Shown: one piece after another, positions 47,640-60,473 of the stretch
Layout of the letters: every line of letters starts with the position of its first letter
Position numbering within the stretch: position 1 is the first letter of the stretch
From: Naegleria gruberi
Lineage: Eukaryota
Assembly (NCBI GenBank): GCA_000004985.1
Contig: GG738872.1
DNA: 64,000 nucleotides
Strand: one strand, 5' to 3'
Program-made: the position numbers and the translations under genes
Notes under the pieces: generated by a model
What the model saw: the letters and a program-made list of their open reading frames with translations, nothing else
Database searches by the model: none
What the model was told of the DNA's origin: nothing

Positions 47640-50600
47640 TTATTGTTGAATGGTTGAGTTTGGTCTATTTTCCTTATCACCCAATTGTCTATATTTTTGC
47701 TTGATAGATTCCAAGTCGATGGAACTACTATATCTATTGGTAGCACTATTGGCCTTGATATTGGCAAATCTTTCTCTGAGACTATCAATATTGTTGGTAG
47801 AGGAGAGAGCACTCGAGTAGGTAGAACCATTAATATTGGACAAGCTTCTCATCTTTCTATAATCCTCAATTGATTTTGGTTTGGTATCAAATTGAGAAAT
47901 GGTGGCACTATTTACACTGCTGTAACGAGATAAGATGTTTTGGGAGAGGCTGGAAGTGGCAGGGGTTGTTGTTGGAATTTCCTTGAGAACTGGTCTAACT
48001 TCCTCTGGAGGAGAACTGAATGGCATTTGGTTGACTGAATGATTGACTGTAATGGTTGGAGTTTGTTGTGTAGATTCGAGGGCGACCTTCTTCGATTGTT
48101 CATGAGCAGCAATCTTGGCAACAGATCCAATAATGTACTCTTGGAAAATCTTACCAAATGATGTAGTTCCAAGGAATTCGTTGATTTTAAATTCAGGATG
48201 TTGCACTTGGAATTTGTAAAGCTTATATAATCCAGATCTTGTGGTTTCCTTATTTCCAATTAATGTACAAATTTCCTTGAGTTGATCACTCTCTGATTCA
48301 AACAAGCTGTTGGTGCTATCAGAGGATGTAAAGGTGTTAGTGTTGGTGGAAGAACTAGAAAGAGAGAGGACGTTCAACTCGTGTTCAATGTGAGAAATCA
48401 TAACCTTATTGAGTGTTGTGAGATAGGTTCTCAAAGAGTTTCCTTTCAGCTTGACAAGAGTTTGGATAATAGTCTTGATCATTCTCAAAGGGCTATCATC
48501 CTTGCCTTCAAAGAATGTTGGAGGATTGCTAGAGAGGAAGCTTTGAATATCCAACAATACTGAACCAATTTCAATGATACCAATTGTCTTTTCCAAAGTC
48601 TTAGTGAGCTTGGAGAGACACTTGATAAGTACCTTGGTAAAGCTGGTTGGTTCCTTTTCATGATCGAGGCAGGACTTTTCCAATAAAGTAATCAAGCAAC
48701 TGTAAGCAGTGGTTCTGGAACAATTTTCAAGAATACGAAGAATGAGAGTATTGAGAGCAGCAACCATCTTTTCACCATATTCAATAGTTGGTAACTTGTC
48801 ATTGAGTAAAAGTCTGAGTAAGACTTCTAAAAGATTGAGGAGAGTCTTCTTTTGTACCAATGAGGAAAAGTTTCTAGATTCAAACAAACCCATCATGGTA
48901 TTGATCATAATCTTACAAATTCTTGGACCAGAGAGACCAATAATGACAGAGTCAAAAGCAACCTCAAAGAAGATGGAAAGGGAGTAAACCAATTGTTCTC
49001 TATTCATGGAAATACCCATATCTTGGTATTCAACATGCTTATCAAGAGTCTTCATGGCATTCATAGCATTTTCAAAGTTACTGATTTTAGTGTTAGTGAG
49101 AACTCTAATGATTTGTTCGACAGACATTTGTACATCCTTAGATTGTGGAACAATATTAATCTTCTTTGGAGTTAACAAGGTGGTTGGTGACAATAATAAT
49201 TCTTCAGTAGCAAGCTTTGAGAATTTGAGCTTCTTTGGTGTAGTAAAGACACTATCCTTGACTGTTGAAATGCTTCTCTTTCCTGGAGTAGAAGGAGGAG
49301 ACATTGGACATTCGATTGGTTTTGGGAAGTCCATTTTGAACAAGGAGGATTGAACAAGAGTTTTTCTTGAGCTCTTATCATCTTCAATGACTGGTTGGAC
49401 TGGAGTAGGTTGTGTAACTGTTTTAGATTGGTTTTGCTTTTTCATTTCTCCAATAGTGAGGGAAGAGGAGGATCTTTGCAAAGTTGAAGCAGCTGGTTGG
49501 GTTTGTGGTTGTTGGGCAGGCTTAGTTGGTGGTTGTTCAGCTTTGACTGGTTGAACTTGTTGGACAGTTTGTTGGGCTGCTGCTGTTGGTTGATATTGGT
49601 TTTCATACTTGGAAATAACAGCAATGATGCTACTCTTGGAAGCATTGTTGAGATCTTGACAGAAACTCTTGATAAAATCAGCACCAGTTGTTCTGATAAC
49701 CTTTTCCAAAACTGTTTCAGCAAGTTTTCTTGTGCATGCCTTTGGGTCTTGCAAGCAGTTAATGAGAGGCTTGGCGAGGTGTTGGAGAGTATCCCTAGAT
49801 TTGTTCTTGACTTCCAAAATGTAAGTGTCAATGAATTGGAGAGCATCTCTTCTTCCTTCAGGATGGCCCTTCTCATTGTTCAAAGGCTTGTCCATATACT
49901 TGATAATGTTATCCATATTGAGAGATTTAACAAGTCCTTCTAAAGTTTGGTAAGTAGCAGTTCTGATCACCTTATTGTTGTGAGTGAATTTGGTCACCAA
50001 ATTTTGTAAAATGACTGGACTGAACTTTTCAAATCCACTACCAGCAGCTTCACCAATGAAAACATAAAGTTCCATTGTTGTACTGAGAATCTTGACATTA
50101 GCATCTTCCATTCTCTTCTTCAGAGCTTGAATGAGATTATTAAGATTTGGAGTAATTCTCTTATTAGCTTCAGTGATTATATTCTTGATTTCTTCCAAAG
50201 CTTCCAATCTAGTCTTCCAAGCTTTGTCCTCCAATTCTCCAAGAATCTTTGATGTAATCTTGCCAGAGATATCAGTTCTTGGCAGTAAATCATCAAAAGA
50301 TGGAGCACTACCTGGTTCACCAGACTTACTACTTGTACTAACATTCATACCTCTGACAAACTTGGTTTGTGTAGGTGGAGCATCTGTGAATTTTTGGAAT
50401 TCCTTCTTGATGGAATCCAACAATGCAGGCTTGACATCATTCAAATAATTCAAAAGTCCATCTCCCATAAACTTTTTCATGGAACAGAGAATTTCTGTAG
50501 CGCCAGTCTTGACAGGAGGCTTAGCATTACCCAAACAAACCTTTGAAAAATCAATAATTGACTTGACATCAATAGTTTGCATGGCAAAGTGTTCGATTGT

Positions 50601-51629
50601 AGCAGCCATCCATCCAAGAGTTTCACCAGCAATCTTTGGATTCTTGTGATCCTTAATAATTGGGTAGAGTTGATTAAAGACGAATTGAGGAGAGTACATT
50701 TCAGCAAGCTTGGAAAGACATTGAGTGCAAGGATCTTTCAATTTGGCAGTAGCAATCTTTTCAACAAGTCCTTCAATAACTGTTACAGCAGGCCCAGTTG
50801 AAAGAGTTGAGCAACTGTCCACAATTAACATTACCATTTCAATAACTTTTGACAAATTTTGAACATTTGATTCCTTCCAGCCAGGCTTTGAGTTAAGAGT
50901 TACGACAATAACATCAGCATTACTAGCCATAACATCCTTATCCATTTCTGTTAGGGATTTAGAGAGAGATTCAATTGCTTCCATACGTTCCTTCAATTTA
51001 GAAGAAGATAATGCCTCAACAATGGATGCATCAATAATTTCTGCAATTCTACTTTGAGCCTCCTCAAGGGACACTGTATTTCTAATACTGTTATCAATAG
51101 GTTTGGAAAGTTCCTTCCCACCAGCAGCTTTCTTTTTTGCAGGTGCAGCAGAAGAAGCACCATCTGATTTTCTCTTCTGTGAAGGATTTGGTCTTGAGAG
51201 GGCTGGCTTTTTAAGAGGAGGACGACTAGTTGTTTTTGGTGGTGATGTTGTTATTGTTGTTGTTGACTCGGTAATAGTATCGGCATCAACAGCAGATTCT
51301 TCCTCTGCTATTGTTGCTTCTGTTGTTGTTTTAGATGGTGTTGAAGTTATTGTTGTTTGTGATGATTCCTCCTCTGTATTTGATGATGATGATGATGTTG
51401 TTGCTGCAGTAGTGCTTCGTTTGAATGGACGAGCCTTGTGTTTACGTTGTGGTGGAGGTCGATTGGTTCTTGTGGTTTGGGAAATTCCTCCTGTGGATCC
51501 TTCTTGTTGTAAGGCTTGCTCTAACATTTTTTGGAAGAGAGCATTCGAGTCCAATACATCTACATTTTCGCCATTATCATCGGTGGCTTGATTATTGTTT
51601 GATGTTGTAGGGATTGGCTTGTCTTCCAT
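47640..51629 (-). CDS. TOG/HEAT-repeat microtubule-regulator-like protein (XMAP215/CLASP/crescerin-type TOG domains), about 1330 aa, single exon
   Basis: ORF 47640-51665 begins at TTG. The first ATG at 51629 gives MEDKPIP. After a 200-aa S/T/A-rich N-terminus come TOG-like HEAT arrays, for example DKAWKTRLEALEEIKNIITEANKRITPNLNNLIQALKKRMEDANVKILSTTMELYVFIGEAAG...KVIRTATYQTLEGLV. Confidence 0.6.
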   Translation of the reverse strand: MEDKPIPTTSNNNQATDDNGENVDVLDSNALFQKMLEQALQQEGSTGGISQTTRTNRPPPQRKHKARPFKRSTTAATTSSSSSNTEEESSQTTITSTPSKTTTEATIAEEESAVDADTITESTTTITTSPPKTTSRPPLKKPALSRPNPSQKRKSDGASSAAPAKKKAAGGKELSKPIDNSIRNTVSLEEAQSRIAEIIDASIVEALSSSKLKERMEAIESLSKSLTEMDKDVMASNADVIVVTLNSKPGWKESNVQNLSKVIEMVMLIVDSCSTLSTGPAVTVIEGLVEKIATAKLKDPCTQCLSKLAEMYSPQFVFNQLYPIIKDHKNPKIAGETLGWMAATIEHFAMQTIDVKSIIDFSKVCLGNAKPPVKTGATEILCSMKKFMGDGLLNYLNDVKPALLDSIKKEFQKFTDAPPTQTKFVRGMNVSTSSKSGEPGSAPSFDDLLPRTDISGKITSKILGELEDKAWKTRLEALEEIKNIITEANKRITPNLNNLIQALKKRMEDANVKILSTTMELYVFIGEAAGSGFEKFSPVILQNLVTKFTHNNKVIRTATYQTLEGLVKSLNMDNIIKYMDKPLNNEKGHPEGRRDALQFIDTYILEVKNKSRDTLQHLAKPLINCLQDPKACTRKLAETVLEKVIRTTGADFIKSFCQDLNNASKSSIIAVISKYENQYQPTAAAQQTVQQVQPVKAEQPPTKPAQQPQTQPAASTLQRSSSSLTIGEMKKQNQSKTVTQPTPVQPVIEDDKSSRKTLVQSSLFKMDFPKPIECPMSPPSTPGKRSISTVKDSVFTTPKKLKFSKLATEELLLSPTTLLTPKKINIVPQSKDVQMSVEQIIRVLTNTKISNFENAMNAMKTLDKHVEYQDMGISMNREQLVYSLSIFFEVAFDSVIIGLSGPRICKIMINTMMGLFESRNFSSLVQKKTLLNLLEVLLRLLLNDKLPTIEYGEKMVAALNTLILRILENCSRTTAYSCLITLLEKSCLDHEKEPTSFTKVLIKCLSKLTKTLEKTIGIIEIGSVLLDIQSFLSSNPPTFFEGKDDSPLRMIKTIIQTLVKLKGNSLRTYLTTLNKVMISHIEHELNVLSLSSSSTNTNTFTSSDSTNSLFESESDQLKEICTLIGNKETTRSGLYKLYKFQVQHPEFKINEFLGTTSFGKIFQEYIIGSVAKIAAHEQSKKVALESTQQTPTITVNHSVNQMPFSSPPEEVRPVLKEIPTTTPATSSLSQNILSRYSSVNSATISQFDTKPKSIEDYRKMRSLSNINGSTYSSALSSTNNIDSLRERFANIKANSATNRYSSSIDLESIKQKYRQLGDKENRPNSTIQQ

Positions 51630-52370
51630 TTTTTTTGAATTTGTTTGTGGATTGTTTAACACCAACTAACGATCAATTTTTTTAAATTTTGGCGCCATTT
51701 AATTTTGGCGGGCAAACAACTAAAATCTACCAGTCAACTGAATTAATTCTTTCACTTGACAATCAAATAGTGTTATTGGTAATACCTCTCACAAATAATA
51801 TGTAATACAAAACCCATCTCAATAACAAATATTTCGAAATCAATACAGTCAAATGTTATCACTCTACAATTTTTTCACAAGTTATTTCCGCCCAATTTAA
51901 CGATATTCATCAATTTGGCACTCTCTTTCCCCTCTGTGAATTTTCCATTTAAAAGGCATTACTCATTTTTAACTGAATTTTCTGTAAAAGAAGAGAGGAA
52001 TGTTTTTTTGGAGGTTGTGCCGTAAGTACAGTTGGTTCATGGATGATTTGAAGAAAGGGCAGACAAATAACTTGTTGTAAAGACGCACACTAGAGAGTTT
52101 TAACAAGTTAAAAAACAGTGTCAATTGGTTGCTCTCTCTGATCCTCTTTTACTTTCGATTGGTTTCGTATATCGTAGTTATTGGACTAAGAGTATCGACG
52201 ATAGTGGAAGATTTTAAAGGATTTTGGGTAATAATTATTTTATGGGGTAGGTTTTACTTGTCAACGTTCTAGTTCACCTTCTTGCCTGTCAAAAATACAA
52301 AAAAAGGACGAAATATTATCTCTTAAAGTTTTGATGAGAATTGAATAATCAATCAATAGAAAATTATAAA

Positions 52371-55300
52371 ATGTTAACCCAAAAGTATAATCCCAAGATG
52401 AAACTTGGTAGTGGAGCAGAAGGATTAGTTTATTTAGGTTCGTATACCTATTCGAAATATATATTGACATTAGGAAACATATTATTTCATCATCATCATT
52501 TTCAATAATAATAACAATAATAACAATAATTATCATCATCATCATCGTGATCACAACTCCAGTCGAGGAAAAATCCACCAACAAACTATTCGCCATCAAG
52601 ATGATTACTCTCTTTGAGGAAGAAAATTTTGAAAAGATTAAAAAGGAAGTCGATTTGGTTCGGAAGTTTCATGAACACAACAATATTGTGAGGTATTTTG
52701 ATTATTTTGAGGAGAGAACCATTGATGCTTTTGCAGGTGTTGAATTGAGACTCTTCTTTGTTATGGAATATTGGTAAGTAATTTATATATTTGATTTGTT
52801 ATATATTCAATAATAATAATATTATATTCAAATTTGCTATTATTATTATGTGTTTTTTCAATATCCATTCATCAATGTTATCTTCATATGAAATTGTTAC
52901 TTTACTATGATGATTATGATGATTATATACATATGAAACTCTGATCAATATATTGAACATCATCATCAACATTGATACAATGCATCTCTAATGGATCAAA
53001 TCAATAATAATGCTAATAACATTAACATGATCACCAAATTCTTCAATTCTACAACTGTGATTTTTCTTCATCATATTTGCACATCATCCAATATCCAATT
53101 ATTATCAATTAATAACACTAATAATACTAACAATAACAACAACTACTATAACAACATTCATATAAATAGTGATAAGGGAAGTTTAGAAACCATCATTCAA
53201 GAATATCTCAAGGAAGGACAACATAAGAATAGTGGAAGTGAGGATTTGGCAGCTGATAAGCATCTACCCTTCTCTTTTATAATATCAACTATAAAACAAT
53301 TGACGAGTGTTTTAGTATATATACATAATCAACAAATAGTACATAGAGATGTAAGTCTAGTCCATTAATTTCAAATAGTTGATCATCTTTTTCGAAATGA
53401 TAATGACATAATATGAAACTATAGTTAAAACCTGCCAATTTACTATTCAAAGCTGTATCATCAACAAATATATCCATCACAGAGACAAGTAATGAATCAA
53501 CAACAACAACAACAACAGCTGTTTCCACATCAAAGGAACAACATTCAACAAGTTGTACTTCTATATCAGAAAATGATAATATTATTGAAAATTGTAAAAA
53601 AGAAGCATATAATGATTGGGTACTCAAATTGAGTGATTTTGGATTCACCAAACAAATGAAAGATAATATGGCCCAAAGTTTTGTTGGAACAATCCAATAC
53701 ATGTCACCTGAATTGTTCAGTTCAAAGAAATATGATGCAGGTACTGATATTTGGTCATTTGGTGTTTGTATTTTAAGAATGTTTGCATTTCTGGATGAAA
53801 CCAAAGTTCCAGATCTGAGACATGAAATTAAGAAGGATTCAGAGTTTGTATGTAAATTATGCAAAAAGTATAAGGCTCCTAAGGTGGTTGAGGAGATTGT
53901 CTATGCCTGTCTGTTATTGGATCCAACCGATCGTCCAACAGCTGCAGAGATTTCACAATTTTTGGAAGAGTTTGAGAAGAGTGGAGGAACTGTTTCTCTG
54001 TTAAAGAAGGTTAAATTCACACCACCACCTTCATCACAAAATTTAAATGATCAGAATGGAATGTTGGATGTTTCTATAACGATGGATGATGAATTGTCCT
54101 CCTCTTCATCCTCTGATGGAAGTCTTCCATTGGAAAAGATTATCAATGATAAGGCACGAGAATTTTGGAAGCAACATTCTTGGGAGAGAAGAGTCAATTG
54201 GATGGATTTCAGAGAGGCCTACATTAATCTGATTCAACAATTGAAAATCGAAGAAAAGAAGAATGAAAATAATGAAATTACAACTGAGTCTCCTGGGATT
54301 AATATTAGTTATACAGGAATTTCAATGACTGATTTCATGAGAGGCCTAAAGACTGGCGTATGTAACAAGTATTTCGACACTGTATCAATAGAAGATTTGA
54401 ATGAATTGACAAAGCAAGCTGGTTTCCCGTTCAATCCTGAATATGTGATAAATCTTGCTGCTTACGAGATAACTGACGACAAGGAGGTTGATATTGAAGA
54501 TGTAACAATGGATACTGAAACTTTCATGAGGGCGCAATCCAAATATTTGGAAACTATTCTGACTTGTGATAAGGTATTCATTGATCCAATATCTCAGGAA
54601 CCTCTCCAGATTGATCAACATTTGGCTCCTCTGGAATTGGTTGAAACCAATGAATGGAATGATCTTTTGAAAACCGAACAAGAAATTGAAGAAGACGATG
54701 AAAAGAAAACCAAAGTCGAACGAGGATCGAGTCAATACTATGAAGATGCAGTTGATTTCCTCTCGAGTACCAGTGATAGACCTCTCAAATATCTCATTTT
54801 GGGTTCTGCTGCTTGTGGTAAGACTTGTATGATGAAACGATTGTGCTACAAGGCAGCTCAATCTGCTTACAAGAGGGCTGGTGATACAAATTCATTCGAT
54901 TTGGTTCCACTCATGGTTCCAGTAGCAAATATTCCAGTAGAAGAGCACGACAATATCCCATTCAAACTCAAGTGTATCAGAGCATCGGCTGACACCTTCA
55001 ACAAGGGTCTCAAATATTCTGCAGATGTGGAAAAGTTCCTCTTAAATGTTTGGCAATGTGGACGATTACTCTTATTATTGGATGGCCTTGATGAGGGTGG
55101 AGAGAATAGAGCCAAATTGGAAAAGCAAATTTGCAAGCTCAATTTCAGAGAGTTGGGAGGCATTCTCACCACCAGTAGAGTCAGTGGTTTCGAACAGGAA
55201 GAGGCCAAGAATGTTTTTGATAGTTTCAAGATTGCAAGAATCAAACCACTCACTTATCAAATTCAAAAGCAAGTTGCCTTGAGTAGAGGTCTCAAAGATC

Positions 55301-58179
55301 CAAAATTCTTCCAATCCCTCCAAAAGTATAAGGAATTAGCAAAGATTCCACTACTTTTGAGTTTAATGATTCAAGAATACAAGCAAAATAAGGAATTACC
55401 AGATATTAGATCAGTTCTGTATGACCATGCTTGTGAAACAATGATTTCAGTCTATATCGATAAGGTCAGACCACATACTACCAAACAAGAGAGAAGAGAT
55501 TTATTCGAAATGCTCTATGCTGTTGCAAGTATTTTACACGACAATACTAAACGTTACTTTACGAGTGCCTATATTGAAAAGCACCTCCAGGAAATTACTA
55601 CCATCGTAGACTTGGAGGCCTCAGCCAACAATAGTGTAACAAATGGAAGTCAACCACCACTCTCCTCTCAGTCAATTACCAATGCAAACAATCTTACAGC
55701 TAACGAATCTGGTACAAACTTTTCATCAAGTTCCAGTGAACCAAGTAGAAATGTATACGAAACTTGGAAGACTTTCCATCAAGATATCGATGATGGACAT
55801 TTCCCGCTCATTATTCGATTGGGTAACAATTATTCATTTGCCCACTTGTCATTCCAGGAATATTTCGTTGCCAAAGTGTGGAGTGATGCTAGGAGAGTTT
55901 CAAGAATTAGAGAACAAAAGAAGGGTCGTTTGAATTTCTTCTCGAGAAAGAAGGAAAATCTTCCAATCGTATTTTCCTCAGAAACTAAGAAATTAATTAT
56001 TGATCCATGGTTCAGAGAAACTTTCTTAATCTGTGCTGGATCAATGTCTAGAGATGATTTCAATGAATTTATCAATTACTTGTCTGAAAACTTTAAAAAG
56101 AGTTCTGCCATTGATAATTTACTTCTCCAAATGATTAGAACTGAAAGACCAAGTGATGAGAGGGATCAATACAGTGAAATTGAAAAGAATATTACAACAC
56201 AAAAGAAGTTGAAGAATATGATTTTGGAGGGTTTGATTCACGACTCTTCAGTTTTGAGAGAAATGACAACCAAGAGAGTTGCTCTCTATGAGAGTGACTT
56301 GACCAATGTTATTGCATACTTGTTGAAAGTTGTGACCAAGAATAAGGATAAGACCAAATCAGCCACCCACAGCTTGCTAGATATCTTCCAACAATTGAAA
56401 GACGATAAGGAATTCAGATATAGAACTACCAAACGATTGATTGAATCACTTGCTGACAAACAGTGGAAGATTGGAGAGCAATCAGTCATTGCACTCTTAG
56501 CAATTGCTGAGAAGGAAGATACGAGAATTACTAAAAAGTTGTGGACTCTCATGACCAAGCCACCAATTGAAGTACAAGTCAGAGCATGTTATGCCATTTC
56601 AGTCTTGGCTAAGAGGGGAGACTCCAAGTTTATTAACAAGTTTATGGAGATTTTACTCTCAGAGACAATCAAGGAAGGTCGATATATGGACAAGATGATT
56701 GAGAGCTTGACAAATATTTGTGTCAGGGCAGATGAAATTGTCCTCTCACAAATCAGATCCAACATTAAACAAGCCCAGAACAAGCTCATTCGACACGGAT
56801 TGATTACTGCCCTAGGAAAGATCTCAGCTCCAGGTGATAAGCAAACAATCAAGTTACTCGTTCAAATTCTTTCAAAGGAAAAGTCATCCGATACACTAAC
56901 CTTTGTTGTAGATGCTCTCAAGATGGTTTGTGAAGCGAGAGAAACAACCAACTTGTCCATTGCAATCAAACTCCTCAAGGATCACATTGCATACAGACCA
57001 GATAAGTCTCTACGTGAGGAATACGAAGAATACGAATTTAGTTTCAATGATTTGAATCAAAAGATTATGGAACTCATTCAAGCACTATTGTTGGGCAGAG
57101 AATACTCCAAAAGAGATACCAAAGATATGAGCTTATATGTGAAAGGATTGACTGAACAATTGAATAAGGATAGTAATTTTAAGAAACTTGTTTATGAGCT
57201 CTATGACACCATGTTCACTTTGGCAATTACTGGAGATTCTCAAATAAGAAAGACAACTGTATCTACATTCTCAGCTATGGTTGACCATAATGATGAAGAA
57301 TTGCTAACCTTTATTTTTGACAAGATCAAAAACGACCTTCTCAAGAATATCATGACTGAAGACAAATCTATGGAAATCACAACAGTTATTTTCCTTTTGG
57401 GTGTTGTATTTGCCAATACAGCCAATTCTCAGGCCATTAATGTACTTTTAGAATTGTTAGAATCAAACAGTTCGAATGCTTACTTACTTGGAGAGATTTT
57501 CACAGCCATGGGTAATGTTGCTCCACGCAACGATACCTTCCTTATTGAGATGATGACCAAATATTTGGAAATGGAAAAGGATGCCCACATGCAAGAGAAG
57601 GAATTGTGGAAACTCAAATCGAGAATCATCTCTGCCTTGGAAAATATTTGTCTGAGGGAGGAGAATAATGAAAGACTAGTTACCAAGATGCTCCAATTGT
57701 TGGAAGTGTGTCCTCAAAAATTTTCACATACATTCAAACCAACTTGTATCAAGGCAATTGGAAGACTCTTAAAGAAGGGAGAAAAAGATGCCATCAACAA
57801 ATTGGGACCTTTGGCAGCTGATAAGGATAGTTTCATTAGAAAAGCAGTTGCTTATACTTTGGGATTGATTTCAGATAAGGCCAATAAGAATGCAGTTAGA
57901 GTATTGAAAGATATGTTAGAAGATGAAAATGCAGAAGTTAGACAAGAAGTTATTGAAAGTTTGGGTAAAGTAGCAGATTTAGAGCAGTTGGTGACTTCAC
58001 TCAAGGCCAACATTTCTGAAACTATTAGAACAGCACTTTTCCAAATGATTATCTATCAAATTAGAGAATCGAGACAAGAAAATCCAAAGTTTTCACTTCC
58101 TTCCAAGCAAGTGAAACATTTAGAAAGTTTGAATTGCACAGAAGCCAGATTCATTCTGTTGGAGAATTACAGCGTGTGA
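52371..58179 (+). CDS. Protein kinase / NACHT (STAND P-loop NTPase) / HEAT-repeat multidomain protein, NLR-like; four exons (52371-52437, 52563-52773, 53170-53350, 53425-58179), about 1740 aa
   Basis: The kinase domain is split over exons 1-4. Motifs: LGSGAEGLVYL; LFAIKMI...EKIKKEVDLVRKF; FFVMEY|C|DKGSLETII; VYIHNQQIVHRD|LKPANLLF; DFGFTK; GTIQYMSPE. The introns are 52438-52562 (phase 1), 52774-53169 (phase 2) and 53351-53424 (phase 0). NACHT motifs: Walker A LILGSAACGKTCMMKRL, Walker B GRLLLLLDGLDEGGE, sensor ILTTSRV, IPLLLSLM. The C-terminal 600 aa are HEAT / PBS-lyase-like repeats, for example LIRHGLITALGKISAPGD and DSFIRKAVAYTLGLISDKAN...DENAEVRQEVIESLGKVAD. Confidence 0.8.
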
Positions 58180-58272: not shown

Positions 58273-60473
58273 TTATGGATTTTCTTCCAAGTCCTTCAAT
58301 ATTGTTGTGATTGAGTCGTATGTTTCTTTTGTGAGTAATTGTGCTTTGGATTGGTAGATCACAAAGGCCTTTAGGGCAATAATTAGAGAAATGAAAGAGT
58401 TTTCAGGAAGGTCTTTCTTAATGGATTCCCTGTTAGCTTCGTGATCCTTGCACAAACAACCAATAAGAATTGCCAAATAAGAAGTGATGATATTATCTTC
58501 CGTATGTTTAAGACTGCTTCTCAAATCACCCTTCTTTTCATTTTCTTTCTTTTCAGTCGAAACTAAATCCACAATCTCCGCAGCTGCATTGTCACTTCTT
58601 TGGGAATCAGTTGTTGCTTGCTCTGCTACATTAACTGTTTCATCCTCATCTTTGTAGTCTTGTTTGGCATAATATTCCTTGAATAAATCTATTAAAAATT
58701 GTAATAATTTCTTAGTCTTTCCTCTAAATTCAAACTCTTTTGGAATAGGGTAAGAAAAACGTTTTCTCAATACTTACTGAAATTTCTTATTAGCTCTCGA
58801 TTAGTCCAGCTACTATCTGTCATGTTTGAAAGTAAGGCCAAAGACATTGTGAGAATGTCGAAATGTTGTGTATAACTTGAGGCTAAAACAGAACACACTC
58901 CAGAAATACCATTTTCTTCGGCAATTTTGTTGCAAATATCATTATTACAATTGCTGATATTTGTCAAAAAACGTAAAGTGATGAGGGTGCAATCCAACAC
59001 TGGATGGCCATCTTTAAGCTCGCTCAATAAAGATTTGTCTATTTGAAAATGGTAAACCACAAATAATATTCCAAGATCCACTTACTGATTGGTGTCAGAC
59101 AATTCAATAATCTAATAAGAGCAGGTAAGAAATAGTTCCAAGCCTCAGCATTCTTACTTGGGTCTGAAGAGGCATACTTTGTCACAATTCCATTCTTTTC
59201 CAGCATTTTAATACAGTTACACATATCACCAGATATTAGATCATCTCGTTCTTGTTCTAATATTGCCAATAGGCAAGGTACTAATCGCTCTATTGTTTCT
59301 ATACTATTCGATTTAACAAATAACAGGGTTGGTTTGTTCTTGGTTATAAATTCTTCCTTATTGGATGATTGGTGATACTTCAATTCAAAGTTGTAATGCT
59401 CGTAATTTACAATATTTACCATGGCAGATAGAGCCAAGGAAATGGTGGTCTTCTCGAATGTTTTAATGTTGGCATCCTCATCTACTACCTTTTCTTGCTC
59501 TTTTTGAGCTTTCTTTGGTGAGCCTGCTTTGAGAGCTGCCATTCTTGTTCGTTTGGTTCTTTTGATGGAATCCAAGTTTGAAGTTTGTTGCCACTTTAAC
59601 ACATGGTGCTGTTTGATAATTTCATGGAGTGTGACGAATGAGGTTTCAGTTGCATATTCAGCATTCAGAGGATCTTTAAGGAGAATCCCTATAATTTGAG
59701 CAGCTGTCAATGAAAGTAATTGTTGCTTTTCAAAATCAATGACTGTGCATAGAGTTTCAACCATAGACTTAACCATGGAGTGACTAGGGACATTATTGAA
59801 TAAATAATGAAACAAATTCTTATCAAACTTACGCTCTGAGGAAAATTCCCAAATCATTTCCTTCCTGTGAAAACATTTGTGCAAGTGAGCTAGCACTTGA
59901 ACATTTAATATCCAAAGATCTAGAATTGAGTCCACCTAAATAGTTTAAAATACTCTCCTTCTTATCCAACTCCTTTCCTGAAACCTTAATTGAAGTTGAT
60001 GACATTCTCTTTTGTTTTTTGAGTGCTCTAATTTCCTTTTCTCCATATTCATCTTCTGATGAAGAATAATCAAAAACGTCATCAAAAAGATCATCGGAGA
60101 AGAAGTTATCCTCAGCAGATGATGATTTCTTTCCTGGTGATTTTGAATTTGGTGTTTTTGGAGTTTTTGGTGTGCCAACTTTTGGACTCTTGCTTGGTGT
60201 TGATTTTGATGAAGATGGTTTCGGACTCTTCTTTGGAGTTGATGGTAATTTTGATTGTGATGATGAATCAAGGCTTGAACGTTTCTTTGTCTTTTCCTTC
60301 AAAGTTTCATCAAATACATTCTCACCGAAAATGTCATCATCACTCTTTCTTCTGGTACGTTTCTTCTTCTTTTCATCATCACTGTTAATATCATTGAAGA
60401 GGGAGACTTTTTTCGAGTTGGGTGAACTCTCCACTTTGACAAGCACTGGATTCTTCTTTTTAAACGTCCTCAT
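58273..60473 (-). CDS. Helical-repeat (ARM/HEAT-like) protein with a K/S/P-rich disordered N-terminus, four exons (60473-59833, 59783-59086, 59038-58778, 58736-58273)
   Basis: Four minus-strand ORFs join through three canonical GTAAGT...YAG introns of 49, 47 and 41 nt, with phases consistent (phase 2, 1, 1). The N-terminus carries basic SPKK/TPK repeats and acidic FxD motifs (DIFGENVFDE, NFFSDDLFDDVFDY). A possible cohesin-regulator (WAPL-like) identity is speculative. Confidence 0.5.

What the first reader, a model, noticed from the sequence alone, without database searches (positions are those of the whole stretch)
52371..58179. NLR-like STAND protein with an N-terminal active protein kinase, a central NACHT NTPase and C-terminal HEAT repeats
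The fusion kinase–NACHT–HEAT/PBS-lyase repeats is an unusual tripartite architecture. NACHT proteins normally carry death-fold, HET/HeLo, TIR or purine-nucleoside-phosphorylase-like effectors and WD40/LRR/ANK/TPR sensors. A kinase effector plus a HEAT-type sensor, in a gene-dense non-metazoan AT-rich genome, suggests a non-canonical innate-immunity or allorecognition-type or signalling switch. All catalytic kinase residues are intact, so a nucleotide-gated kinase output is plausible. These are the intact residues: VAIK-type Lys in LFAIKMI, HRD, DFG, and the APE-like YMSPE. The Walker A, Walker B and TSR sensor of the NACHT are also intact.
Basis: partly seen in the sequence, partly recalled or inferred. 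Interest (0 to 1): 0.85.

Follow-up and report, generated by a model that had tools for sequence, protein, structure and literature searches.

The report
Naegleria kinase–NACHT–HEAT switch protein
This is a real Naegleria gruberi gene whose single 1737-residue protein joins an intact protein kinase, an NLR-type NACHT ATPase and HEAT repeats; its parts are all known from other NLR-like proteins, and it evolves like a conserved low-copy signalling gene, not like an expanding immune-receptor family.

Summary
Window 52371-58179 (+) is a four-exon gene whose spliced product is identical to N. gruberi XP_002676357.1 (NAEGRDRAFT_79999, 1737 aa).

- **Kinase:** it scores strongly against Pfam (1e-43). 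All catalytic motifs are invariant across the family.
- **HEAT repeats:** they pass Pfam cut-offs.
- **Single gene:** half of the kinase, the NACHT and the HEAT repeats lie in one uninterrupted exon.

Kinase N-termini and NACHT/HEAT pairings are already described in fungal and bacterial NLR-like proteins. The family is low-copy, named only in Heterolobosea, and has one-to-one orthologues at 69% identity. The HEAT part is the best conserved region, has no DNA repeats, and the gene is not in a cluster. That pattern does not fit allorecognition.

The most likely function is an ATP-gated, oligomerisation-activated kinase switch. I rate it a new variant of a known kind, of moderate interest.

The parts
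52371..58179 (+). Whole coding region of NAEGRDRAFT_79999. Four exons: 52371-52437, 52563-52773, 53170-53350 and 53425-58179. The stop codon is at 58177-58179.
   Evidence: The spliced translation is 1737 aa, in frame, with GT-AG introns. It is identical to P0001 = XP_002676357.1.
52371..53970 (+). Ser/Thr protein kinase domain, aa 1-335, spread over all four exons. Motif positions: GSGAEG 52407-52424, Lys35 52598-52600, HRD 53342-53350, DFG 53635-53643, SPE 53704-53712.
   Evidence: Pfam Pkinase scores 1.1e-43. The catalytic residues are invariant in six family members. Motif coordinates were verified. The profile's best PDB match is NEK1 at 142 bits, but CDPK, ULK1 and PAK1 are within 10 bits.
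53452..53613 (+). Ser/Thr-rich low-complexity insert of 54 aa, between the catalytic loop and DFG.
   Evidence: In the kinase alignment the insert is present only in the two Naegleria A-type sequences included, N. gruberi and N. lovaniensis. It is shorter in N. lovaniensis and absent from the other four members.
54121..54684 (+). Conserved pre-NACHT domain, aa 386-573. It consists of a pair of EF-hand-like helix-loop-helix units followed by a small beta-beta-alpha element that carries the invariant F-x-D-P-I-S-Q-E motif.
54763..56355 (+). NACHT module (nucleotide-binding domain, helical and winged-helix domains), aa 600-1130. Motif positions: Walker A 54802-54825, Walker B 55069-55095, sensor-1 TTSR 55168-55179, winged-helix motif FAHLSFQEYFVA 55837-55872. 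A disordered insert lies at 55618-55743.
56356..58176 (+). C-terminal HEAT-repeat solenoid, aa 1131-1737. It ends in the family-invariant tail EARFILLENYSV (58141-58176).
   Evidence: Pfam HEAT_2 scores 1.7e-18 and HEAT 4.3e-7, both above their cut-offs. There are weak PBS-lyase/NblB-type matches. PADLOC HEAT-ARM_XIII matches at 1e-7. No DNA repeats were found. The tail is conserved in all full-length homologues.

Best explanation
The locus is one gene of Naegleria gruberi. It encodes a STAND-type, NLR-like signalling protein.

**Domain order.** The protein has an N-terminal Ser/Thr kinase that is probably active. Next comes a non-calcium EF-hand-like adaptor domain, then a NAIP-type NACHT ATPase module, and finally a HEAT-repeat solenoid.

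**Proposed mechanism.** This is by analogy with solved NLRs. In the resting state the HEAT solenoid and the winged-helix His (FAHLSFQEY) hold the NACHT in a closed, ADP-bound form. Binding of a conserved ligand or partner protein to the HEAT repeats allows ADP/ATP exchange and oligomerisation of the NACHT modules. Oligomerisation brings the N-terminal kinase domains together, so they activate by induced proximity and phosphorylate downstream targets.

**Shown here.**
- It is a single gene.
- The domain identities are established.
- Every catalytic and nucleotide-binding motif is intact and conserved across the family.
- It belongs to a low-copy family named only in Heterolobosea.

**Inferred, not shown.** ATP-dependent oligomerisation, kinase activation by proximity, and the nature of the signal.

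**Likely role.** The evolutionary pattern is slow and even, and the HEAT part is the best conserved. This points to a conserved cellular input, meaning a housekeeping or developmental signalling switch. It would work like ROCO/LRRK kinases, where an NTPase switch sits beside a kinase. It does not point to a rapidly diversifying pathogen or allorecognition receptor.
For: **Single gene.**
- Exon 4 (53425-58179) is one open frame. It runs from LKPANLL through DFG, SPE and subdomain XI of the kinase into the NACHT and HEAT parts.
- The model equals XP_002676357.1.
- The same fusion is predicted in N. lovaniensis, N. fowleri, Willaertia magna, Acrasis kona and in unnamed assemblies.

**Kinase.** Pfam scores 1e-43. 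G13, G15, G18, K35, H151-R152-D153, K155, N158, D224-F225-G226, P248-E249 and R323 are invariant.

**NACHT.**
- NACHT is the best Pfam family in 7 of 7 members.
- The family profile reaches 14,365 proteins. Those that carry names are NACHT NTPases.
- Foldseek gives NLRC4 at 4e-9.
- Walker A, Walker B (DGLDE), sensor-1 and the winged-helix His motif are all conserved.

**HEAT.**

**Conservation pattern.**
- Identity per domain between N. gruberi and N. lovaniensis is 69-84%. The HEAT part is 71% with one gap.
- Against the Willaertia A-type protein, the HEAT part is 43% identical and the N-terminal part 30%.
- Two paralogue groups are each shared by Naegleria and Willaertia.
Against: - There is no experimental or expression evidence of any kind. 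No paper mentions the gene.
- On its own, this sequence's NACHT falls below Pfam's cut-off. The family profile finds no PDB NLR by sequence, so the NACHT is divergent.
- The structure model has only moderate confidence: mean pLDDT 69.8 and pTM 0.55.
- A conserved sensor does not exclude immunity, because it could recognise a conserved microbial molecule.
- The 54-residue insert next to DFG could affect kinase activity.
- The survey for paralogues used word-filtered searches and could have missed N. gruberi copies.
Confidence: 0.6

Rival explanations
1. It is an innate-immunity or allorecognition NLR. In this reading the HEAT repeats sense a pathogen-derived or non-self molecule. The kinase is the effector that starts a defence or cell-death response.
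For: - NACHT proteins act in immunity in animals, fungi and bacteria. HEAT repeats are described there as an antigen-receptor-type domain (Kibby et al.).
- Ser/Thr kinases occur as effectors in NTPase-centred conflict systems (PMC7159879).
- The fold is closest to NOD2, NLRP3 and NLRC4.
- The nearest relatives outside the family are prokaryotic NACHT proteins.
Against: - There is no expansion: I found one named N. gruberi member and 1-2 per related genome.
- Orthologues are one-to-one at 69% identity over the full length.
- The HEAT part is as conserved as the other domains, or more so.
- The HEAT region has no repeat homogenisation.
- The gene is not in a cluster, and its neighbours are TOG-domain and WAPL-like genes.
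- It matches no PADLOC NACHT or Avs model.
Confidence: 0.2
2. It is a flagellar or cell-cycle module in which a NEK-like kinase is fused to an NPHP3/NLR-like NTPase. The fusion would then be a 'Rosetta stone' for the NEK8-NPHP3 or NEK7-NLRP3 partnerships known in animals.
For: - The kinase profile's best PDB hit is NEK1.
- The Acrasis homologue is named 'Nek' by NCBI.
- Family members also hit Pfam NPHP3_N.
- Naegleria builds flagella de novo.
- That NEK8 works with NPHP3, and NEK7 with NLRP3, comes from my own knowledge and was not tested here.
Against: - The NEK assignment is not discriminating. CDPK, ULK1, GCN2 and PAK1 score within 10 bits.
- NPHP3_N is simply another model of the NACHT clan.
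- I found no expression data. Two look-ups in the supplements of Naegleria papers returned nothing.
Confidence: 0.08
3. The kinase is an integrated decoy or sensor domain rather than the output. This would resemble integrated domains in plant NLRs, or the CHK2-like PKinase domains in Sordariales NLRs.
For: PMC12258605 proposes a decoy role for the PKinase domains integrated in 12 Sordariales NLRs.
Against: - Here the kinase is N-terminal, which is the usual effector position.
- All catalytic residues are invariant across deeply diverged paralogues.
- The kinase is no closer to any one host kinase family than to the others.
- Nine of the 12 Sordariales cases are C-terminal.
Confidence: 0.07
4. 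It is a gene-model artefact in which a kinase gene and a separate NACHT-HEAT gene have been wrongly merged.
For: The three introns are predicted and not confirmed by transcripts. Intron 2, at 396 nt, is much longer than the other two.
Against: - The C-lobe of the kinase (LKPANLL, DFG, SPE, DIWSFG, DRPTA) lies in the same uninterrupted 4755-nt exon as the NACHT and HEAT parts.
- Independent predictions in five other species give the same fusion.
Confidence: 0.02

Closest known systems
NAIP-like (N-NACHT)/HEAT NLRs of fungi and Rickettsiales (Leipe et al. 2004 subdivision; Bonometti et al. 2025, PMC12258605)
   Same: - It has a central NACHT with Walker B DGLDE.
- It carries the diagnostic winged-helix motif FhHxxhQE[YF]hxA, here FAHLSFQEYFVA.
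- It is followed by HEAT repeats.
- It has the three-part NLR layout.
   Different: [quoted passage not shown] Here it is a protein kinase plus an EF-hand-like domain.
- The host is a heterolobosean.
- The motif is also common in the prokaryotic relatives found here, so it does not by itself place the protein next to animal or fungal NLRs. No phylogeny against the published clades was made.
Fungal NLRs with an N-terminal PKinase domain (Dyrka et al. 2014, PMC4986451)
   Same: A protein kinase sits in the effector position of a NACHT or NB-ARC STAND protein with C-terminal repeats.
   Different: - Fungal NLR repertoires are large and variable. Some carry highly conserved, polymorphic repeats.
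- This family is low-copy, orthologous across genera and has no DNA-level repeats.
- I found no report of the PKinase-NACHT-HEAT combination in the papers read.
Animal NLRs (NOD2, NLRP3, NLRC4/NAIP)
   Different: - Sequence identity is only 11-16%.
- Animal NLRs have LRR sensors and CARD, PYD or BIR effectors, not HEAT repeats and a kinase.
- A profile-to-PDB sequence search fails to detect them.
Bacterial NACHT proteins (bNACHT; Kibby et al.) and cyanobacterial NACHT NTPases
   Same: - They are the closest relatives outside the family by profile search, with E 1e-21 to 1e-9.
- They share the Walker B and winged-helix motifs.
- Some have HEAT repeats.
   Different: - Identity is 20-27%.
- Their Walker A is GxPGxGK[ST], against GxAAxGKT here.
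- This protein matches no PADLOC NACHT defence model.
- Their effectors are mostly nucleases, peptidases or NADases.
ROCO/LRRK kinases
   Same: The logic is the same: a P-loop NTPase switch and a Ser/Thr kinase on one polypeptide, flanked by solenoid repeats. This is what it most plausibly works like (from my own knowledge of the family).
   Different: It is not a member. There is no Roc GTPase or COR domain; the Pfam Roc match has E 0.22 and covers the P-loop only. The NTPase is a STAND ATPase, and the domain order is reversed.

Membership tests
NACHT NTPase (Koonin & Aravind 2000; Pfam PF05729) | Walker A P-loop GxxxxGK[ST] | tested here: met
   GSAACGKT at aa 613-620 (window 54802-54825). 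G, K and T are invariant in the family.
NACHT NTPase (Koonin & Aravind 2000; Pfam PF05729) | Walker B hhhhD followed by a tiny residue and two acidic residues (DGxDE) | tested here: met
   LLLLDGLDE at aa 702-710. D, G, D and E are invariant.
NACHT NTPase (Koonin & Aravind 2000; Pfam PF05729) | Score above Pfam's gathering threshold | tested here: inconclusive
   This sequence scores 22.1 bits (whole protein) and 24.9 bits (module) against a cut-off of 26.7. All 7 family members have NACHT as their best family, with a best E-value of 1.7e-8. Precomputed PF05729 hits are on record for 7 homologues.
NACHT NTPase (Koonin & Aravind 2000; Pfam PF05729) | The NBD-helical-winged-helix module fold is closer to NACHT NLRs than to NB-ARC, Avs or other AAA+ proteins | tested here: met
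   [not shown]
NAIP-like NACHT subfamily (Leipe et al. 2004, as quoted in PMC12258605) | Winged-helix (HETHS) motif FhHxxhQE[YF]hxA | tested here: met
   FAHLSFQEYFVA at aa 958-969. The core F-x-H-x-x-x-Q-E-[YF] is also present in most prokaryotic hits.
NAIP-like NACHT subfamily (Leipe et al. 2004, as quoted in PMC12258605) | Phylogenetic placement with animal NLRs and Rickettsiales (clade 12 of Kibby et al.) | not tested
   No reference set of the 25 published clades was available.
Eukaryotic protein kinase, Ser/Thr type (Pfam PF00069) | Pfam score above cut-off, with GxGxxG, VAIK Lys, HRDxKxxN, DFG, APE-type motif and subdomain XI Arg all intact | tested here: met
   It scores 149.9 bits against a cut-off of 31.7. 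All these residues are invariant in six members. HRDLKPAN is the Ser/Thr-type catalytic loop.
NEK kinase family | Kinase domain specifically closest to NEKs | tested here: inconclusive
   In the profile search against the PDB, NEK1 is first at 142 bits. CDPK scores 138.7, ULK1 137.5, GCN2 133.5 and PAK1 133.2. The single-sequence search gives CDPK, PAK and NEK2 within 6 bits of each other.
HEAT repeats (Pfam PF13646 / PF02985) | Pfam scores above cut-off in the C-terminal region | tested here: met
   HEAT_2 scores 67.1 against 27.7, and HEAT scores 30 against 23.5. PBS-lyase/NblB-type NCBIfam matches are weak.
Immune or allorecognition NLR repertoires (behaviour, not homology) | Lineage-specific expansion, clustering, and a fast-evolving or repeat-homogenised sensor | tested here: not met
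   - There are one to two members per named genome.
- Orthologues are one-to-one at 69% identity.
- The HEAT part is 71% identical with one gap, and is the best conserved part against Willaertia.
- No DNA repeats were found.
- The neighbours are housekeeping genes.
- Within-species polymorphism was not testable.
ROCO (Roc-COR) kinases | Roc GTPase plus COR dimerisation domain | tested here: not met
   The Pfam Roc match has E 0.22 and covers only the 30-residue P-loop. There is no COR hit.
EF-hand pair (pre-NACHT domain) | Paired helix-loop-helix fold | tested here: met
   [not shown]
EF-hand pair (pre-NACHT domain) | Canonical 12-residue Ca-binding loop (DxDxDG...E) | tested here: not met
   The loops read QHSWERRVNWMD and NKYFDTVSIEDL, and neither fits the consensus (alignment). 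No Pfam EF-hand hit was found.
Bacterial anti-phage NACHT/Avs systems (PADLOC) | Match to a PADLOC NACHT or Avs model | tested here: not met
   Only HEAT-ARM_XIII matched, at 1.1e-7.

The most novel reading that the evidence does not exclude
Heterolobosea keep an ancient, slowly evolving STAND-kinase that is not an immune receptor. In this reading it is a core signalling switch: a NACHT ATPase gates a kinase through a CBL/STAT-like EF-hand adaptor domain. The fusion would then record an old functional coupling between NEK-type kinases and NACHT/NPHP3-type NTPases. In animals that coupling survives only as separate partner proteins (NEK7-NLRP3, NEK8-NPHP3). It would be a non-immune ancestral role for NLR-like proteins in a deep-branching eukaryote.
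Probability: 0.1. Interest if true: 0.75.

Novelty: new variant of a known kind. Interest (0 to 1): 0.42.

Why it matters
NLR-like STAND proteins are studied almost only in animals, plants, fungi and, recently, bacteria. This finding adds a family from Discoba, a distant eukaryotic lineage that includes the pathogen Naegleria fowleri.

- **Output.** The output domain is an enzyme whose activity is easy to assay. That makes the protein a tractable model for how a NACHT switch controls an effector.
- **Evolution.** Its conservative evolution suggests that NACHT/HEAT proteins can serve conserved signalling roles, not only arms-race immunity.
- **Adaptor domain.** The unrecognised EF-hand-like domain is a candidate new adaptor between effector and NACHT.

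The practical value is modest until function is tested. The gene is already in public databases as an uncharacterised kinase.

Tried and rejected
- **Profile against PDB sequences, NACHT module.** No significant NLR match; the best was the NLRP7 winged-helix motif at E 0.68. Sequence alone does not link it to solved NLRs, so I used structure instead.
- **Profile against PDB sequences, pre-NACHT domain.** Nothing significant; EFHC2 at E 0.66 was only a hint.
- **SH2 idea.** The CBL and STAT top hits raise the possibility that an SH2-like element follows the EF-hands. No conserved Arg is present and that part of the model has low confidence (pLDDT 50-66), so I make no claim.
- **Kinase subfamily.** It could not be resolved.
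- **Literature.** Searches for Naegleria with NACHT or NB-ARC, and for the gene and protein accessions, found nothing relevant. Look-ups in the supplements of two Naegleria papers found nothing.
- **AFDB fold library.** It was not available.
- **Paralogues in the window.** A tblastn search found only the gene itself.
- **Bacterial origin of P0004 and P0005.** These 'HEAT repeat protein' hits without Pfam kinase looked like bacterial NACHT-HEAT proteins. I rejected this: their N-termini are the C-lobe of the same kinase, so they are truncated eukaryotic gene models.

Full report
**1. What is in the sequence**

The window is AT-rich (GC 0.30-0.38). ORF listing and direct reading of 52200-53800 show short kinase-coding pieces. 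These are followed by one very long open frame, 53629-58179, of 1516 codons from its first listed start.

Splicing at canonical GT-AG sites gives four exons: 52371-52437, 52563-52773, 53170-53350 and 53425-58179. The introns are 125, 396 and 74 nt, and the product is an in-frame protein of 1737 aa.

This protein is identical, residue for residue, to NCBI XP_002676357.1 / EFC43613.1 (UniProt D2VHM4). That record is the 'uncharacterized protein NAEGRDRAFT_79999' of Naegleria gruberi.

Exon 4 on its own encodes the second half of the kinase (LKPANLL, DFG, SPE, DIWSFG, DRPTA), the NACHT and the HEAT repeats, without a stop codon. The fusion therefore does not depend on any splice prediction.

**2. 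Domain identities**

*Kinase.*
- Pfam Pkinase scores 1.1e-43 (149.9 bits).
- In an alignment of six family members, every catalytic position is invariant: the Gly-rich loop, Lys35, HRDxKxxN, DFG, P-E of the APE motif, and the subdomain XI Arg.
- The subfamily cannot be fixed. A family profile ranks NEK1 first in the PDB (142 bits), but CDPK, ULK1, GCN2 and PAK1 follow within 10 bits (single-sequence result).
- N. gruberi has a 54-residue Ser/Thr-rich insert between the catalytic loop and DFG. It is shorter in N. lovaniensis and absent from the other four members in the alignment.

*NACHT.* On its own the sequence scores 22.1 to 24.9 bits against Pfam NACHT, just under the 26.7-bit cut-off. A family profile detects no NLR in the PDB by sequence. 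Four other lines of evidence establish the call:
- NACHT is the best Pfam family for all seven family members scanned, with a best E-value of 1.7e-8.
- A profile of the module finds 14,365 proteins at E of 0.001 or better in 1.84 billion representatives. In the annotated database, nearly all hits below the family itself carry Pfam NACHT. Those that are named are mostly cyanobacterial 'NACHT domain-containing' proteins.
- The motifs are present and invariant: Walker A GSAACGKT, Walker B LLLLDGLDE, sensor-1 TTSR, and the winged-helix motif FAHLSFQEYFVA. The last one fits the pattern FhHxxhQE[YF]hxA that defines the NAIP-like NACHT subfamily (Leipe et al. 2004, as quoted in PMC12258605). Its core is also common in the prokaryotic relatives.

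*HEAT.* HEAT_2 (67.1 bits) and HEAT (30 bits) pass Pfam's cut-offs.

- They match nothing in Pfam or the PDB by sequence.
- The predicted structure has two helix-loop-helix units with paired short strands. A small beta-beta-alpha element carrying the invariant F-x-D-P-I-S-Q-E follows.
- The loops do not fit the calcium-binding consensus.
- I read this region as a non-calcium EF-hand-like adaptor domain. I make no claim about the CBL/STAT-like extension.

**3. Relatives and evolution**

Full-length relatives with the same architecture come from several sources:
- Naegleria lovaniensis and N. fowleri, at 69% identity over the full length.
- Willaertia magna, with two proteins.
- Acrasis kona, with a partial protein named 'Nek'.
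- Unnamed metagenome or read-archive assemblies.

Hits that looked like kinase-less 'HEAT repeat proteins' begin in the kinase C-lobe, so they are truncated models of the same architecture.

A rough neighbour-joining tree and pairwise identities show at least two old paralogue groups, each shared by Naegleria and Willaertia. I found only one protein named as N. gruberi, and no second copy in the window. These searches use a word filter and are not a complete genome survey.

Identity between N. gruberi and N. lovaniensis is even across domains, at 69-84%. The HEAT part is 71% identical with a single gap. Against the Willaertia A-type protein, the HEAT part is the best conserved (43% against 30%).

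The HEAT-coding DNA has no internal repeats. The flanking genes encode a TOG-domain (XMAP215/CLASP-like) protein and a WAPL-like protein. Nothing suggests an expanding, clustered or fast-evolving receptor family.

**4. How it most likely works**

Solved NLRs give the template. From my own knowledge of these families, an ADP-bound closed state is held by the winged-helix His and the repeat domain. Ligand binding allows nucleotide exchange and oligomerisation, which brings the N-terminal effectors together.

All the residues needed for this cycle, and for phosphotransfer, are conserved here. I therefore propose an ATP-gated kinase that is activated by oligomerisation. This step is inferred, not shown.

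The even, slow evolution of the HEAT solenoid points to a conserved input. I favour a cellular signalling switch that works like ROCO/LRRK kinases, without being a member of that family (no Roc-COR).

An immune role against a conserved microbial cue is not excluded (0.2). I rate the other readings as follows:
- NEK-NPHP3/NLRP3 'Rosetta stone': 0.08.
- Integrated decoy kinase: 0.07.
- Gene-model artefact: 0.02.

**5. Comparison with what is known, and novelty**

- PKinase is a listed N-terminal domain of fungal NLRs (PMC4986451).
- NAIP-like NACHT paired with HEAT is described in fungi and Rickettsiales (PMC12258605).
- HEAT is a common repeat type in bacterial NACHT proteins, and eukaryotes are thought to have acquired NACHT modules from prokaryotes several times (Kibby et al.).
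- Ser/Thr kinases occur as effectors in other NTPase-centred conflict systems (PMC7159879).
- Other kinase-plus-NACHT layouts turned up among distant hits, for example C2-kinase-TPR-NACHT-LRR.

Each pairing is therefore known. I found no description of several features: the three-part kinase-NACHT-HEAT protein with its EF-hand-like linker domain, its restriction among named organisms to Heterolobosea, and its conservative evolution. No paper mentions this gene.

I rate it a new variant of a known kind, of moderate interest.

**6. Limits**

- No transcript, expression or biochemical data were available.
- The structure models have moderate confidence.
- The AFDB library was not available.
- No phylogeny against the published NACHT clades could be made.
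- The paralogue count rests on filtered searches.

Noticed in passing
[not shown]
   Followed up: partly
window 58141-58176 (aa 1726-1737): The extreme C-terminus (EARFILLENYSV) is conserved in every full-length family member as E-[AS]-x-F-[IV]-[LM]-[LIV]-E-N at or near the end of the protein. It could be a docking or autoinhibitory tail.
   Followed up: no
window 53452-53613 (aa 163-216): A Ser/Thr-rich low-complexity insert of 54 aa lies between the catalytic loop and DFG of the kinase. It is shorter in N. lovaniensis and absent from the other four members in the alignment.
   Followed up: partly
window 55618-55743 (aa 885-926): An Asn/Ser-rich, predicted disordered insert (pLDDT below 50) lies inside the NACHT module, before the winged-helix motif. 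Its length varies among homologues.
   Followed up: no
window 52774-53169: Intron 2 is 396 nt, several times longer than introns 1 and 3 (125 and 74 nt). It contains AT-rich microsatellites and an open frame that runs into exon 3, so an alternative exon boundary is conceivable. The orthologue alignment supports the annotated junction (MEYC|DKGSLE).
   Followed up: partly
window 47640-51665 (- strand): The neighbouring 1341-codon ORF encodes a TOG-domain protein of the XMAP215/Dis1/CLASP type (Pfam 2e-20), a microtubule regulator.
   Followed up: partly
window 58273-60473 (- strand): The downstream gene, on the opposite strand, has several exons. One has a weak WAPL (wings apart-like) match at E 4e-4, and the others have no Pfam hit.
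   Followed up: partly
P0011, P0014 (N. lovaniensis-type B paralogues): In the B-type paralogues the first Gly of Walker A is replaced (SNASCGKT). The family as a whole uses GxAAxGKT instead of the GxPGxGK[ST] of its prokaryotic NACHT relatives.
   Followed up: no
P0041 and P0035 (distant hits of the family profile): Other unusual NACHT architectures occur in unnamed assemblies. P0041 is C2-kinase-TPR-NACHT-LRR (2153 aa). P0035 is a NACHT with a C-terminal RCC1 propeller (2558 aa).
   Followed up: partly
P0022 (Willaertia magna) against the window protein: Between genera the HEAT 'sensor' part is more conserved (43% identity) than the kinase-to-NACHT part (30%). This is the reverse of what is usual for immune NLRs.
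   Followed up: partly
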